Shown: positions 10,819-13,800 of the stretch, piece after piece
Layout: each line of letters opens with the position of its first letter
How positions within the stretch are numbered: the stretch's first letter is position 1
NCBI GenBank assembly: GCA_965242705.1
Contig: OZ251486.1
Span: 3,151,806-3,215,805, forward strand
Source of the DNA: Bryobacterales bacterium
GTDB lineage: Bacteria; Acidobacteriota; Terriglobia; Bryobacterales; UBA6623
DNA: 64,000 bases
Direction: 5' to 3'
Program-made: the position numbers and the translations under genes
The notes under the pieces: model-generated
Databases searched by the model: none
Told to the model about the DNA's origin: nothing
What the model saw: the letters and a program-made list of their open reading frames with translations, nothing else

Positions 10819-10847
10819 TTGTGAATTTTTTCGCGGAATGTTATATT
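10819..10847 (+). promoter_or_regulatory. Candidate sigma70-like promoter of the 10.9-14.3 kb NHL gene
   Basis: TTGTGA (10819-10824), a 17-nt spacer, then TATATT (10842-10847), in the only AT-rich patch of this intergenic region. Confidence 0.35.
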
Positions 10848-10873
10848 GTCGGTTTCAGTTTGGAGATCGTCTG

Positions 10874-13800
10874 ATGAGCAACGTCGGCCGTTTTACCCCC
10901 CCCCCCCCCCGCAATTCAGGTAGGGCAAACTGCGCGCCGCCGCGCTTGCCTGGAGGCGCGGCCGTGAAACGGCCCGTGACTCGCGGCGCGCGGCCCGCGG
11001 CCGCCAAGCGGCTCTGCCGCCTGGCCGCCGCCGCGCTGGCGGCGTTCGCTTTCCACTGGGGCGCGCAGCGCGCCCCGGCGCAAAGGTACGCGTGGACCAT
11101 CGACGCGTTCGCCGGAGGCGGCGGCACGGCGGTTCTGACGACGTTGAGCAGCCCCCGCGGCGTGGCCGTGGATGCGAACGGCAACATCTACATCGGCGAC
11201 GTCTCCAACCACCGCGTCATCCGCATCGACGGCGCCACCAAAAACTATTCGATCTTCGCCGGGACGACGGGAACCTCGGGCAACGCCGGCGACGGCGGGG
11301 CGGCCACTTCGGCCACGTTGAACGAACCCTACGGCGTGGCCGTGGACTCCGCAGGCAACGTTCTCATCGCCGACACGGGCAACCGCCGCATCCGCAAGGT
11401 GACCCTTTCCACGGGCAATATCGCCGCCTTCGCCGGTACGGGCAGCGAGGGCAACACCGGCGACGGCGGCGCGGCGACGGCGGCCACCTTCGGCTGGGTT
11501 TACGACGTGGCGGCGGACGGGTCGGACAACGTCTATATCGCCGATCGATCCTACAGCCGCGTGCGCATGGTGACCGCTTCCACGGGCAACATCTCGACCG
11601 TTATGGGGCCGCAGATAGGTGTGGTTAATTTGGGCACCCTGGAGGGCGTGGGCGCGGATTCGGCGGGCAACGTCTGGGCCGCCAGTAATGGCGCCAACAG
11701 GGTTTTCAAGCGGACCAGCACAGGGACCAACTCCGTCTTTGCCGGCTCGGCGACGAGCGGCTTCGGCGGCGACGGCGGGGCGGCGACTTCGGCGCGGTTG
11801 AGCTCCCCCCGTGACGCGGCGGCGGACGCGGCGGGCAACGTTTACATCGCCAGCACGGGCAACGACCGCATCCGCCGGGTGGATACGTCGGGGAATATCT
11901 CGACCATCGCCGGCACGGGAACCCAGTCGAGCACCGGCGACGGCGGCGCGGCGGCTTCGGCGACGTTGAACAATCCCGAAAAGCTGACGGTGGACTCGGC
12001 GGGCAACATCTACATCGGCGAAACGAGCGGCAACCGCGTGCGCAAGATAGACGCGTCGGGGATCATTTCGACCATCGCCGGGCTGGGGCCGACGGCCGTG
12101 GGCGACGGCGCCGCGGCGGCTTCGGCGTCGCTGAACGGACCCAGCGGCGCGGCTGCGGACGCTGCGGGCAACATTTATATCGCCGATGCGGCGAACAACC
12201 GCATCCGCAAGATCGATGCTTCCACGGGCAATATCTCGACCATCGCGGGCACGGGAACGGCGGGCAACACAGGCGACGGCGCGGCGGCGACCTCGGCGAC
12301 GTTGAGCTCCCCCTACGGCGTGGCTCTGGACTCCGACGGCAACGTCTATATCGCCGATACGGGCAACGACCGCGTCCGCAAGGTGACGGTTTCTTCGGGC
12401 AATATCGCCGCCCTTGCGGGCACGGGCACGGCAGGGTTCACCGGCGACGGCGGGGCGGCGACCTCGGCGACGTTGAGAGGTCCCCGCGGCGTGGCGGTGG
12501 ACTCGTCGGGTAACGTCTATATCGCGGACTCGCAGAACGAGCGCATCCGCAAGGTGACGATCTCCACGGGCAACATCGAGACCATCGCGGGCACGGGGAC
12601 TGCCGGTTCGAACGGGGACGGGGGCTTGGCGACGGCGGCGCAGGTGAACTTCCCCCACGACCTGACTCTGGACGCGTCGGGCAACGTCTATATCTGCGAT
12701 ACGTTCAACAGCCTCATCCGCAAGATCGATGTTTCCACGGGGAATATCTCGACCATCGCGGGCACGGAGAATACCGGTTTTAGCGGGGACGGGGGCCTGG
12801 CGACGGCGGCGCGGCTCAATTTCCCCCGCGGCCTGACTCTGGACGCTGCGGGCAACCTGTATATCGCCGATTATTCCAACCACCGCATCCGCCGGGTGGA
12901 TACATCGGGGAGCATCGAGACCATCGCCGGGGCGGGAACGGCGGGCTTCAGCGGGGACGGGGGCCTGGCGGCTTCGGCGCAGCTCAACCGCCCCTACGGC
13001 GTGGCGGCGGACTCCGCAGGCAACCTCTACGTCACCGACTTTAACAACCACCGCGTGCGCAAGCTGATGCTGACGCTGCAGCCGGATGAGCCGACGGAGC
13101 CGGGAACGGGGTCGGGGTCGGGAACGGGGCAGCCGGAGCCCGAAGCGCAGCCGGTGGGCGGCGTCACGGAGTTGACGTTCGAGCCGGCGGAAGCCGCCGA
13201 GCCGACGTCGAAGACGCTGACGCTGCGCGCCGAAAACGGCGCGGTGGACTACCAGGCCATACCCAGCGCGCGCTGGATCGAAGTCACGCGGGCGGCGGAC
13301 GGCGCGGCGCAGTGGCGGGGCCGTCTGGCGCAGGGCGAGACGGTAGCGCTGCAGGTGACGGTCAACCCGCTGGGGCTGCGCGAGGGAACCCACAACGGAC
13401 GGCTGTACATTCGCTCCAACGGGCGGCTGACGGCGACGATCCGCATCGTGCTGGAGGTTCCGCCGCCGACGGGGCCGGCGGTAACCGAGAACGGCGGAGT
13501 GCTCAACGCGGCGCGGCAGAGCGCCTACGGGGAGCCGGGGCTGTTCGGGCCGCGCATTCTGCCGGTGGCGCCCGGGTCGGTGGTGGAAATCCGCGGGCGG
13601 AACCTGGCCGCCGATGGGTCGGCGACGGCGGAGGGCTTGCCGCTGCCGCGGAGCCTGGGCGGGACGCGGGTGCTGATCGAGGGGCAGGCGGCGCCGCTGT
13701 TTACGGTGGAGTCGGAACGCATCGCGGCGCAGTTGCCGTCCGGTCTGTTGCCCGAGGGCGCTCGAACGGCGCTGGCTTCGGTGGAGGTGGAGACGGAGCA

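What the first reader, a model, noticed from the sequence alone, without database searches (positions are those of the whole stretch)
10819..10966. C15 homopolymer in the 5' end of a second NHL-repeat surface protein gene
A run of 15 C (10896-10910) lies between a TTGTGA-17-TATATT promoter candidate and the well-supported GTG 10964 start (GGAGG 7 nt upstream, followed by a classic signal peptide). It also lies inside the frame opened by ATG 10874 (GGAG 8 nt upstream, ..FTPPPPR..), which continues uninterrupted into the NHL ORF. A change of one C would therefore either knock the long form out of frame or alter a short leader. A homopolymer this long is a textbook hypermutable tract. Finding one in front of a second paralogous surface protein, alongside the 8-mer repeat at 861-980, suggests stochastic switching of this protein family.
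Basis: partly seen in the sequence, partly recalled or inferred. Interest (0 to 1): 0.65.

Follow-up and report, generated by a model that had tools for sequence, protein, structure and literature searches.

The report
Poly-C switch in surface-protein gene leader
A run of 15 C sits in a short upstream reading frame in front of one of at least twelve near-identical surface-protein genes of an uncultured Acidobacteriota bacterium, and related copies carry the same tract at other lengths, so it is most likely a slippage-prone on/off switch of the kind known from pathogens.

Summary
C15 lies at 10896-10910. The longest other C run in the window is 6, and about 0.002 runs of this length are expected by chance.

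It is not an artefact. The same leader recurs in front of paralogous or orthologous NHL genes in independent short-read assemblies. It consists of an extended -10 promoter, GGAG, an ATG, about 7 codons, poly-C, the box AATTCAGGTAGGG, then 51 fixed nt with a hairpin, GGAGG and the start codon. Tract lengths there are C12 and an interrupted 25-nt tract. One contig breaks exactly at the tract. An internally deleted gene remnant has a decayed C6A7.

The window comes from a 4.97-Mb Bryobacterales chromosome with at least 12 mosaic paralogs that are 69-90% identical. Two more of them are annotated through a poly-proline stretch.

Tract length sets which of three frames the upstream ORF takes:
- fusion to the NHL ORF, as assembled here;
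- a stop at TAG 10921, before a hairpin that buries the main ribosome-binding site and GTG;
- a stop at a TGA that overlaps GTG 10964.

Other family members carry 8-mer or 7-mer repeats at the same leader position. One 8-mer array differs in copy number between two strains.

The best reading is a contingency locus of a known kind in a new phylum and gene family. Switching itself has not been shown. Interest is moderate to high.

The parts
10819..10847 (+). Candidate sigma-70 promoter: TTGTGA, 17 nt, TATATT, with a TG extension (TGtTATATT at 10839-10847). A transcript start near 10854 is inferred.
   Evidence: Consensus scan. The extended -10 is conserved as TGtTATGTT in L043, TGcTATGTT in L044 and TGtTGTGTT in L048.
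10862..10865 (+). Ribosome-binding site (GGAG) of the upstream ORF, 8 nt before ATG 10874.
   Evidence: Sequence. It is GGAGG in L043 and L044 and GGGAGG in L045. It is degraded to GCAGG in the gene remnant L048.
10874..10895 (+). Start and first 7 codons of the upstream ORF (MSNVGRFT, whose last codon ACC takes the first C of the tract).
   Evidence: The homologous openings are MNSVGIC (L043, L044), MNSFGIC (L048), MSNVGMHRFT (P0010), MNSFGLC (P0013) and MNGNSFG (L045).
10896..10910 (+). C15 homopolymer, the presumed slippage-prone tract. It is read as proline codons in any frame.
   Evidence: The homologous tracts are C12 (L044), C12-T-C8-T-C3 (L043), C6A7 in a remnant (L048), and a contig break exactly at the tract (L047).
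10913..10926 (+). Conserved box AATTCAGGTAGGGC directly after the tract. It holds the TAG (10921-10923) that ends the upstream ORF in one of the three frames.
   Evidence: The only exact match in the window; 0.21 matches with up to 2 mismatches are expected by chance. It is present in L043, L044, L047 and L048 only.
10933..10966 (+). Conserved 13-bp hairpin (about -22 kcal/mol) that pairs part of GGAGG and the GTG start codon.
   Evidence: The same fold appears in L043, L044 and L048 (z -2.6 to -2.9; window z -1.5). 97% of cells are paired. There is one compensatory pair, in L044. Covariation is not statistically significant.
10952..10956 (+). Ribosome-binding site (GGAGG) of the main start, 7 nt before GTG 10964.
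   Evidence: It is conserved in L043, L045, L047 and L048 (alignment).
10964..14263 (+). NHL-repeat / Soli_cterm secreted protein gene (1099 aa counted from GTG 10964). The TGA at 10965-10967 overlaps the GTG and ends the upstream ORF in the third frame.
   Evidence: Pfam NHL/TEN_NHL and TIGR03437 at residues 867-1098. Nine paralogs and the tract-less ortholog L045 start at this position.
10964..11080 (+). Predicted signal peptide (MKRPVTRGARPAAAKRLCRLAAAALAAFAFHWGAQRAPA, cleaved before Q).
   Evidence: Read from the translation. There is a charged n-region, a hydrophobic core and an A-x-A site. No predictor was run.
860..981 (-). (CAGCCCGT)x15 array in the 5' region of the other NLH-family gene in the window, more precisely the other NHL-family gene, on the minus strand. 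It lies between that gene's only credible start (ATG 998-996) and its signal peptide.
   Evidence: The NHL frame is open through the array up to 1003. ATG 998 is out of frame at 15 copies and in frame at 16 or 13. There is no internal ATG or GTG.

Best explanation
The C15 tract is the variable element of a contingency (phase-variation) switch built into the 5' leader of one member of a large, recombining family of secreted NHL-repeat proteins in an uncultured Bryobacterales (Acidobacteriota) bacterium.

Transcription starts from the extended -10 promoter at 10839-10847. Ribosomes load at GGAG/ATG 10874 and translate seven codons and then the C tract as polyproline. Slipped-strand mispairing during replication adds or removes a C and moves these ribosomes between three frames:
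1. Frame 0, as assembled. They read straight into the NHL ORF and make a pre-protein with 30 extra N-terminal residues. These lie upstream of the signal-peptide cleavage site and would be removed.
2. One C more (or two fewer). They stop at TAG 10921-10923, 43 nt before the main start. This leaves intact a stable hairpin (10933-10966) that buries part of GGAGG and the GTG start, so expression is low or off.
3. One C fewer (or two more). They read through and melt the hairpin, then stop at TGA 10965-10967, which overlaps GTG 10964. This favours re-initiation, so the protein with its native N-terminus is made.

Each paralog has its own tract. A population would therefore express shifting subsets of a mosaic surface-protein repertoire.

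Shown here:
- the tract, its conservation at this leader position with different lengths, and its decay in a gene remnant;
- the three frame outcomes and the conserved hairpin;
- the paralog family and its mosaicism;
- repeat-number polymorphism at the homologous leader position of a family member in two strains.

Inferred:
- that slippage occurs at a useful rate;
- which frames are ON or OFF;
- that the upstream ORF is translated.
For: - **Tract.** It is real and non-random.
- **Source genome.** The window's CTP synthase is an exact match to a protein on a 4,969,973-bp contig. That contig also carries P0001-P0010 and P0013, which are 69-90% identical to this gene.
- **Paralogs read through a tract.** P0010 (MSNVGMHRFTPPPPPPANSGRAS..) and P0013 (MNSFGLCPPPPPPANSGRAT..) are annotated through a poly-proline stretch. 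The other nine are called from the internal start. That is 3 of 12 in frame, which is what random frames would give and not what an obligatory coding extension would give.
- **Independent assemblies from other samples.** L043 has C12TC8TC3, L044 has C12, L047 begins exactly at the box that follows the tract, and L048 (an internally deleted 109-aa remnant) has C6A7 and a degraded upstream ribosome-binding site.
- **Specificity.** In 83 kb of these relatives, the only C or G runs of 10 or more are those in NHL leaders.
- **Shared module.** Alignment shows a common module with exactly 51 nt between the box and the start codon.
- **Frames.** The three outcomes are computed.
- **Hairpin.** It is conserved in four leaders.
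- **The GTG start works without the module.** The syntenic gene in strains with 99%-identical CTP synthase starts at the same GGAGG-GTG with no tract.
- **Same leader position, different repeat.** (CCGCAAAT)n abuts the same ..GCAAA(A)TTCAG junction. It has 3 full units plus a variant fourth in L045 and at least 6 full units in L046, with identical flanks.
- **Sister gene in the window.** It can be translated only from an ATG upstream of an 8-mer x15 array, and it is currently out of frame.
- **Relatives.** Some have 7-mer or 8-mer arrays translated into their N-termini (P0085, P0092, P0103, P0105).
- **Mosaic paralogs.** Residues 428-830 are 100% identical to P0002, whereas residues 110-190 match other paralogs best.
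- **Strain divergence.** The syntenic gene is only about 75% identical between strains whose CTP synthase is 99% identical.
Against: - No two sequences of this same locus with different C counts were obtained. The source genome is withheld from the contig look-ups, and two JGI metagenome scans found nothing.
- No read-level data are available.
- The main start has its own strong ribosome-binding site and works alone in L045-type genes, so the tract might only modulate expression, or do nothing.
- RNA polymerase slippage on a 15-nt C run could blur the frames at the mRNA level.
- The whole leader does not fold better than shuffled sequence (z -0.69).
- The hairpin's covariation is not significant (1 compensatory pair; 202 of 500 shuffles reach it).
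- The frame in a long-read consensus may be wrong by one base.
- In L044, two of the three frames stop early, so the three-state scheme is not uniform across the family.
Confidence: 0.6

Rival explanations
1. Fixed cis-regulatory leader, not a switch. The upstream ORF is a polyproline leader peptide, and ribosome pausing on it (dependent on EF-P or Pro-tRNA), or its shielding of a C-rich Rho loading site, tunes expression of the NHL gene. Tract length drifts neutrally above some minimum.
For: - The tract always follows a conserved ATG with a ribosome-binding site, and it encodes 4-8 prolines in any frame.
- A hairpin over the main start suggests coupling to upstream translation.
- From general knowledge: poly(C) RNA is the classic Rho activator, and proline-rich leader ORFs (mgtL, mgtP) are known regulators.
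Against: - At the homologous leader position other family members carry 8-mer or 7-mer arrays that encode no polyproline. What is conserved is therefore a frame-shifting repeat, not proline.
- Frames differ among copies.
- A sister gene has no start other than the ATG upstream of its array.
Confidence: 0.17
2. Recombination initiator. The G15 on the opposite strand forms a G-quadruplex (or the C strand an i-motif) that stalls replication or is nicked. This starts gene conversion among the paralogs, as the G4 upstream of Neisseria pilE does.
For: - Paralogs are clearly mosaic, and the syntenic gene differs strongly between near-identical strains.
- The tract lies at the 5' edge of the variable region, inside conserved flanks.
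- Other G-run arrays occur nearby: ACGGGCTG x15 and GGGGTTA-type heptamers.
- That G15 can form three tetrads is my own inference.
Against: - All copies seen are full-length genes with their own promoters and leaders, not silent cassettes.
- Homologous recombination between 80-100% identical kilobase-long repeats needs no G4.
- (CCGCAAAT)n at the same position in L045 and L046 has no G4 potential.
- No structural test was possible.
Confidence: 0.07
3. Functionless slippage product. The tract is a neutral by-product of replication slippage that spread with the duplicated leader. The protein is made from GTG 10964 regardless.
For: - The GTG start is strong and independent.
- Nine of twelve paralogs are annotated from it.
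- No expression data exist.
Against: - Long tracts persist at the same position in paralogs that have diverged to 69% identity, and in separate assemblies.
- In the one degenerate copy both the tract and the upstream ribosome-binding site have decayed.
- Runs of 7-14 C are absent from the window, so there is no general tendency to build such runs.
- Different repeat types converge on the same leader position.
Confidence: 0.13
4. Sequencing or assembly artefact, for example two-colour poly-G/poly-C noise or a chimeric join.
For: A second long homopolymer (G18) lies in the same window. Long homopolymers are error-prone on every platform.
Against: - The same tract sits in the same conserved leader in assemblies of other samples.
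- It leaves poly-proline footprints in two more annotated paralogs.
- Sequence on both sides of the tract is one continuous homologous module.
- Only the exact length is uncertain.
Confidence: 0.03

Closest known systems
Neisseria opa gene family (CTCTT repeats in the signal-peptide coding region)
   Same: About a dozen dispersed, full-length, recombining paralogs of a surface protein. Each has its own repeat tract between the start codon and the signal-peptide cleavage site. Repeat number sets the reading frame, so each copy can switch independently. The sister gene at 860-981 fits this pattern closely.
   Different: Here the repeat is a homopolymer (8-mers and 7-mers in other members). It lies upstream of a second start codon that has its own ribosome-binding site, within a short upstream ORF. 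A hairpin covers that second start. The protein family (NHL propeller plus Soli_cterm) and the phylum are unrelated. Switching has not been demonstrated.
Neisseria pilC and other poly-G/poly-C contingency genes of Neisseria, Haemophilus, Campylobacter and Helicobacter
   Same: A G/C homopolymer of about 10-15 nt in the 5' part of a surface-protein reading frame. A change of one base moves the frame.
   Different: In those genes an out-of-frame tract simply truncates the protein. Here two of the three frames may still yield protein, by fusion or by stop-start overlap at GTGA. The genome is 67% G+C, and the bacterium is uncultured and not known to be a pathogen.
Haemophilus influenzae lic1/lic2 (CAAT)n with alternative upstream start codons
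   Same: More than one start codon around a 5' repeat gives graded, multi-state expression rather than plain ON/OFF.
   Different: A tetranucleotide repeat. The alternative ATGs all lie upstream of the repeat. No start downstream of the repeat, and no hairpin-masked start, is involved there, as far as I know.
Bordetella pertussis fim2/fim3 and Neisseria opc/porA promoter homopolymers; Treponema pallidum tpr poly-G tracts
   Same: A poly-C or poly-G tract of similar length in front of surface-protein genes. In tpr it lies in front of several paralogs.
   Different: Those tracts lie in or upstream of the promoter and act on transcription through spacing. The C15 lies about 48 nt downstream of the candidate -10 element and inside a translated upstream ORF.
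Neisseria gonorrhoeae pilE G4-initiated antigenic variation
   Same: A G-rich, structure-forming element next to a variable surface-protein gene with many homologous donor copies. The products are mosaics.
   Different: The donors here are complete, expressed-looking genes. The element is a homopolymer on the antisense strand within the leader. No evidence for a G4 role was obtained.

Membership tests
Repeat-mediated phase-variable (contingency) locus | A simple repeat long enough for frequent slippage (G/C homopolymer of about 8 or more) | tested here: met
   C15 at 10896-10910. The next longest C run in the window is 6.
Repeat-mediated phase-variable (contingency) locus | The tract is placed so that a change of one unit alters expression (in a reading frame or a promoter) | tested here: met
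   The tract lies inside the ORF opened by ATG 10874. The three frames give fusion, a stop at -43, or a stop overlapping the main start.
Repeat-mediated phase-variable (contingency) locus | Tract length differs between strains or within a population at the same locus | tested here: inconclusive
   Lengths differ among paralogs and assemblies (12, 15, about 20, 25). The 8-mer array at the syntenic family locus differs between L045 and L046. No second sequence of this exact C-tract locus was found.
Repeat-mediated phase-variable (contingency) locus | Reversible, high-frequency ON/OFF switching of the product | not testable with these tools
   This needs cultures, reporters or read-level population data.
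Repeat-mediated phase-variable (contingency) locus | The product is exposed at the cell surface or secreted | tested here: inconclusive
   A signal-peptide-like N-terminus, NHL propeller repeats and a Soli_cterm domain are present. Localisation was neither predicted by a dedicated tool nor measured.
Opa-like multigene phase-variable family | Many dispersed full-length paralogs, each with its own 5' repeat | tested here: inconclusive
   At least 12 paralogs lie on one chromosome. A tract is documented for 3 of them, and in orthologs of 2 others from other assemblies.
Opa-like multigene phase-variable family | The repeat lies between the sole start codon and the signal-peptide cleavage site | tested here: not met
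   For this gene, a second start (GGAGG-GTG 10964) lies downstream of the tract, and it is the only start in the tract-less ortholog L045. The feature is met for the sister gene at 860-981.
Promoter-spacer homopolymer switch (Bordetella fim, Neisseria opc/porA type) | The tract lies between the -35 and -10 elements, or abuts an activator site | tested here: not met
   The only promoter-like site is 10819-10847, and the tract starts 48 nt downstream of it. The conserved extended -10 lies upstream of the tract in all leaders.
pilE-type G4-dependent antigenic variation | One expression locus plus promoter-less silent donor cassettes | tested here: not met
   The paralogs seen are full length and have promoter, leader and signal peptide.
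Known structured RNA leader (riboswitch, attenuator) in Rfam | A match to a curated covariance model | tested here: not met
   No match with E up to 1 in 10400-11100.

The most novel reading that the evidence does not exclude
The C tract is one instance of a modular, family-wide design. In this design interchangeable repeats (poly-C, 7-mers, 8-mers) sit inside a conserved leader ORF. Their frame decides whether upstream ribosomes reach and melt a hairpin that masks the true start. This is a three-state, translational-coupling phase switch. Combined with gene conversion among a dozen or more mosaic paralogs, it would give an uncultured and possibly host-associated Acidobacteriota lineage a combinatorial surface-variation system comparable to those of specialised pathogens. 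Because the tract is always read as polyproline, switching might also be coupled to EF-P or proline status.
Probability: 0.25. Interest if true: 0.78.

Novelty: new member of a known kind. Interest (0 to 1): 0.58.

Why it matters
Repeat-driven phase variation is known almost entirely from pathogens and commensals of animals. A 2025 review names soil and ocean bacteria as a gap in knowledge (PMC11868660). My literature searches found no report for Acidobacteriota or for NHL/Soli_cterm proteins.

This locus, together with its paralogs and relatives, suggests that an abundant uncultured lineage runs a whole family of surface proteins as contingency genes. It would do so with several repeat types and with active gene conversion. 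If confirmed, three things follow:
- The expanded NHL families of Bryobacterales would be marked as targets of strong diversifying pressure from phage, predators or a host.
- It would help explain why these genes fragment short-read assemblies.
- It would provide a compact leader (promoter, upstream ORF, tract, hairpin, start) that can be tested in reporters.

It is also a practical warning for annotation. Start-codon calls in this family flip with tract length: 1129 aa against 1099 aa for near-identical genes.

Tried and rejected
- **Exact-protein contig look-ups** for the window's NHL gene (both starts), its aldehyde dehydrogenase and paralogs P0001 and P0010 all returned nothing. The source genome is not in that index, so the other eleven paralog leaders could not be read.
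- **Two JGI metagenome pattern scans** found nothing. One used the window's own flanks across the tract; the other used the family box with a C-run.
- **Synteny through the neighbouring aldehyde dehydrogenase** gave 42 loci in GTDB genomes. The three closest genomes (85-86%) have unrelated genes downstream, so they hold no ortholog of the tract. The NHL gene in L034 has no repeat in its leader.
- **A 95-aa N-terminal protein query** returned only two fragments. A 185-aa query added two more, both without the extension.
- **Whole-leader RNA fold** is no better than shuffles. There is no Rfam family. Hairpin covariation is not significant.
- **Promoter-spacer mechanism** was considered and rejected, because the tract lies downstream of the conserved -10.
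- **Obligatory coding extension** was considered and rejected. Nine of twelve paralogs and the tract-less ortholog start at the internal codon.
- **Artefact or chimera** was considered and rejected.
- **Habitat.** The sample labels (PANK22-1_SAMN1229...) recall a sponge-microbiome study, but I could not verify this. The habitat is left open.
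Full report
**1. The observation**

The window has C15 at exactly 10896-10910. Base composition is 32% C. C runs of length 4, 5 and 6 occur 134, 27 and 2 times. There are none of length 7-14, and then this single run of 15. A simple geometric expectation gives about 0.002 such runs in 64 kb.

- TTGTGA (10819-10824), 17 nt, TATATT (10842-10847), with a TG extension.
- GGAG (10862-10865), 8 nt before ATG 10874.
- GGAGG (10952-10956), 7 nt before GTG 10964.
- An uninterrupted frame from ATG 10874 (MSNVGRFTPPPPRNSGRANCAPPRLPGGAAV-KRPVTRG...) into a 1099-aa protein, counted from the GTG.

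The protein has NHL/TEN_NHL repeats and a TIGR03437 'Solibacter C-terminal' domain at residues 867-1098. Codon-position G+C shows that the upstream neighbour is the plus-strand aldehyde dehydrogenase gene (9001-10479). The tract therefore sits in a 484-nt intergenic region.

**2. Where the window comes from**

The aldehyde dehydrogenase finds its closest relatives (85-86% aa) in chromosome-level Bryobacterales (Acidobacteriota) MAGs. The window's CTP synthase is an exact match to a protein recorded on a single 4,969,973-bp contig. The 1129-aa form of this NHL gene, called from ATG 10874 through the tract, is a member (P0121) of the 90% cluster of P0001, and it lies on that same contig.

That contig also carries P0001-P0010 (76-90% identical), P0013 (69%) and further, more distant NHL proteins. 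The gene therefore belongs to a family of at least twelve close paralogs in one genome.

**3. The tract is a conserved feature of the family, not an artefact**

Two more paralogs of the same genome are annotated through a poly-proline stretch at the same place:
- P0010: MSNVGMHRFTPPPPPPANSGRASCAPPRLPGGAAV...
- P0013: MNSFGLCPPPPPPANSGRATVALLRLPAGAAM...

The other nine start at the signal peptide (MKRP.., MTRE.., MNRE..).

DNA from independent assemblies of other samples shows the same leader:
- L043 encodes a protein in the same 90% cluster as paralog P0007. It has ATG-AAC-AGC-GTC-GGC-ATC-TG, then C12 T C8 T C3, then GCG-AATTCAGGTAGGGC, then GGAGG, 7 nt and GTG.
- L044 encodes a protein of the P0013 type. 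It has the same opening, then C12, then AATTCAGGTAAGG and an ATG start.
- L047 encodes a protein of the P0010 type. It is a 662-bp contig that begins exactly at AATTCAGGTAGGGC, so the assembly broke at the tract.
- L048 carries a 109-aa, internally deleted remnant of a family member. Its tract has decayed to C6A7, and its upstream ribosome-binding site has decayed from GGAGG to GCAGG.

In these 83 kb of relatives, the only C or G runs of 10 or more are those in NHL leaders. The sequence on both sides of the tract forms one homologous module (alignment). The box AATTCAGRTARGG occurs only in these leaders among all 48 loci fetched, and only once as an exact match in the window.

An artefact or chimeric join is therefore excluded. 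Only the exact count of 15 remains uncertain.

**4. Anatomy of the leader**

The shared elements, in order, are:
- an extended -10 (TGnTATRTT);
- about 15 nt, then GGAG(G);
- an ATG and a short conserved opening (M-S/N-N/S-V/F-G);
- the C tract;
- the AATTCAGGTAGGG box;
- exactly 51 nt from the start of the box to the main start codon in all five leaders.

Within those 51 nt lies a 13-bp hairpin (window 10933-10966, -21.9 kcal/mol). It pairs A-G-G of GGAGG and the GTG itself. The same fold is the minimum-energy structure in L043, L044 and L048 (z -2.6 to -2.9; window z -1.5).

Across six sequences, 97% of cells are paired. There is one compensatory change (C-G to U-A, in L044) and four single-side wobble changes. 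This amount of covariation is not statistically significant. The leader as a whole does not fold better than shuffled sequence. No Rfam family matches.

**5. What a change in tract length would do**

The frames computed are:
- **Frame 0 (C15 as assembled; also L043).** The upstream ORF is fused to the NHL ORF.
- **One C more.** ...PPPPP-QFR-stop at TAG 10921-10923, 43 nt before the main start and upstream of the hairpin.
- **One C fewer.** The ORF reads through the hairpin and ends at TGA 10965-10967, overlapping GTG 10964 (GTGA). This is a classic stop-start overlap.

L048, and the tract-less but repeat-bearing L045, are in this third state as assembled. L044 is in the early-stop state, and there both non-fusion frames stop early.

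The GTG start is functional in its own right. The syntenic gene of closely related strains (L045; CTP synthase 99% identical) starts at the same GGAGG-N7-GTG, and nine paralogs are called there. Three of twelve paralogs are in frame, which is what random frames would give. This argues against the 30-residue extension being a required part of the protein.

My preferred model is that tract length decides whether ribosomes that start at ATG 10874 stop before the hairpin or traverse it. If they stop before it, the main start stays masked and expression is low. If they traverse it, the protein is made either by fusion or by re-initiation. The frames and the hairpin are shown. The ON/OFF assignment is inferred.

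**6. Family-wide support for a repeat-in-leader switch**

- **(a) The other close family member in the window** lies on the minus strand and runs off the left end. It has (CAGCCCGT)x15 (860-981) between ATG 998, which is preceded by a GA-rich ribosome-binding site, and its signal peptide. The NHL frame is open through the whole array up to 1003. It contains no ATG or GTG before the hydrophobic core. ATG 998 is out of frame at 15 copies and in frame at 16 or 13. That is a plain Opa-type translational switch, currently OFF.
- **(b) Relatives in other Bryobacterales genomes** have N-termini that are translated 7-mer or 8-mer arrays ahead of the signal peptide. Examples are MYDEKRSVRQ(SSVVSRQ)n in P0085, P0092 and P0105, and (SVNPSIRQ)n in P0103. 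The opening MYDEKRS resembles this gene's MYNKERS.
- **(c) At the truly syntenic locus** (downstream of the aldehyde dehydrogenase) in two strains from different samples, the NHL gene has no C tract. Instead it has a promoter, GGGAGG, ATG (MNGNSFG...) and an array of CCGCAAAT. This array abuts the same ...GCAAA(A)TTCAG junction that follows the C tract in the poly-C leaders. L045 has 3 full units plus a variant fourth. L046 has at least 6 full units, and the contig ends inside the array. About 400 nt of upstream flank look identical by eye. This is direct evidence of copy-number polymorphism at the homologous leader position in this family.

Not all NHL genes have repeats. The gene at 39761-42010 and the one in L034 do not.

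**7. Diversification of the family**

The product is a mosaic:
- Residues 428-830 are 100% identical to P0002.
- Residues 110-190 are only 78-85% identical to P0002, but 95-98% identical to P0122, P0004 and P0008.
- The C-terminal 350 residues are near-identical in all copies.

About 250 nt of 5' leader and about 170 nt of 3' flank are conserved between copies at different chromosomal sites. The 3' flank includes a perfect terminator-like hairpin that overlaps the stop codon.

The syntenic gene of a strain with 99%-identical CTP synthase is only about 75% identical over its first 372 residues. Gene conversion between paralogs is the simplest reading.

**8. Comparison with known systems**

By mechanism this is a contingency locus. 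The closest known systems are:
- the Neisseria opa family (many recombining paralogs, each with a 5' repeat ahead of the signal-peptide cleavage site);
- pilC-type poly-G tracts;
- H. influenzae lic genes (several starts around a repeat, giving graded states).

It is not a promoter-spacer switch of the Bordetella fim or Neisseria opc type, because the tract is downstream of the conserved -10. It does not match the pilE G4 system, because the donors are full genes. These comparisons rest on my own knowledge of those systems, not on tests run here.

The differences from known cases are:
- the second, hairpin-masked start downstream of the tract;
- the use of interchangeable repeat types at one leader position;
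- the protein family;
- the phylum.

I found no paper on phase variation in Acidobacteriota, or on these proteins. A recent review lists non-pathogen habitats as a gap.

**9. Verdict**

The architecture and the comparative data fit a family of repeat-controlled surface-protein genes. Length variation at this very tract, and its effect on expression, remain untested.

I rate it a new member of a known kind. There is a reasonable chance that the hairpin/overlap design makes it a distinct variant. Confidence in the main explanation is 0.6, and interest is 0.58.

Noticed in passing
window 47882-47899: A second long homopolymer, G18, ends 2 nt before ATG 47902 of a calcineurin-like metallophosphoesterase (MRVQIFSDIHGDL...). 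It therefore occupies the whole ribosome-binding-site region. No good in-frame start lies upstream of it. It is the only G run longer than 6 in the window. It could be another contingency tract, or a start site for reiterative transcription.
   Followed up: partly
window 860-981 (minus strand), with ATG 998-996: (CAGCCCGT)x15 lies between the only credible start codon and the signal peptide of another NHL-family gene. At 15 copies the gene is out of frame; 16 or 13 copies would restore it. The opening MYNKERS resembles MYDEKRS in relatives that carry 7-mer arrays (P0085).
   Followed up: yes
L045 1240-1290 and L046 1-60 (minus strand): At the syntenic NHL gene of two closely related strains, an array of CCGCAAAT has 3 full units plus a variant fourth in L045 and at least 6 full units in L046 (the contig ends in the array). 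The upstream flanks look identical. In L045 an 89-codon upstream ORF runs through the array and stops at the TGA that overlaps the main GTG.
   Followed up: yes
window 10660-10704, 33895-33947 and 14330-14385; L043 13420-13461: A repeated intergenic element made of a short GC hairpin (CGCGCCTGACGGCGCG or similar) followed by heptamer arrays: GGGGTTA/CCCCTAA-like (telomere-like and G-rich), or GGTCRCG after the NHL genes. It occurs in both orientations. A CCCCTGA variant lies downstream of the aldehyde dehydrogenase in L045 and L046.
   Followed up: no
window 10964-14263 compared with P0001-P0010: Mosaic paralogs. Residues 428-830 of the window's protein are 100% identical to P0002, while the N-terminal blades match other paralogs best. 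Conserved 5' and 3' flanks frame each copy. This looks like ongoing gene conversion.
   Followed up: partly
L048 5337-5775: An internally deleted family member (109 aa, with the N-terminus joined to the last 11 residues ..QPGVTIAVE). Its tract has decayed to C6A7, and its promoter and upstream ribosome-binding site are weakened.
   Followed up: partly
L005 16779-16790 (minus strand): In another Bryobacterales MAG, a C12 run lies 3 nt upstream of a perfect TATAAT. This would be a promoter-spacer type of homopolymer. The downstream gene was not identified.
   Followed up: no
L002 13148-13156 (minus strand): A C9 run inside a coding region, directly after a lipoprotein-like signal sequence (..LLPAACSPPPLEQ..). 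It is a possible short contingency tract in a related genome.
   Followed up: no
window 45700-47800: A stretch of lower G+C (0.61) with small ORFs and a duplicated opening (MTYALIQ... at 46034 and 46964), directly upstream of the G18 tract. It may be a variable or mobile segment.
   Followed up: no
window 14259-14290: A perfect hairpin GGAATAGCGGC-TTGC-GCCGCTATTCC overlaps the stop codon of the NHL gene. It is conserved after the paralog in L043 (13393-13420). It is likely a terminator and the 3' boundary of the duplicated unit.
   Followed up: no
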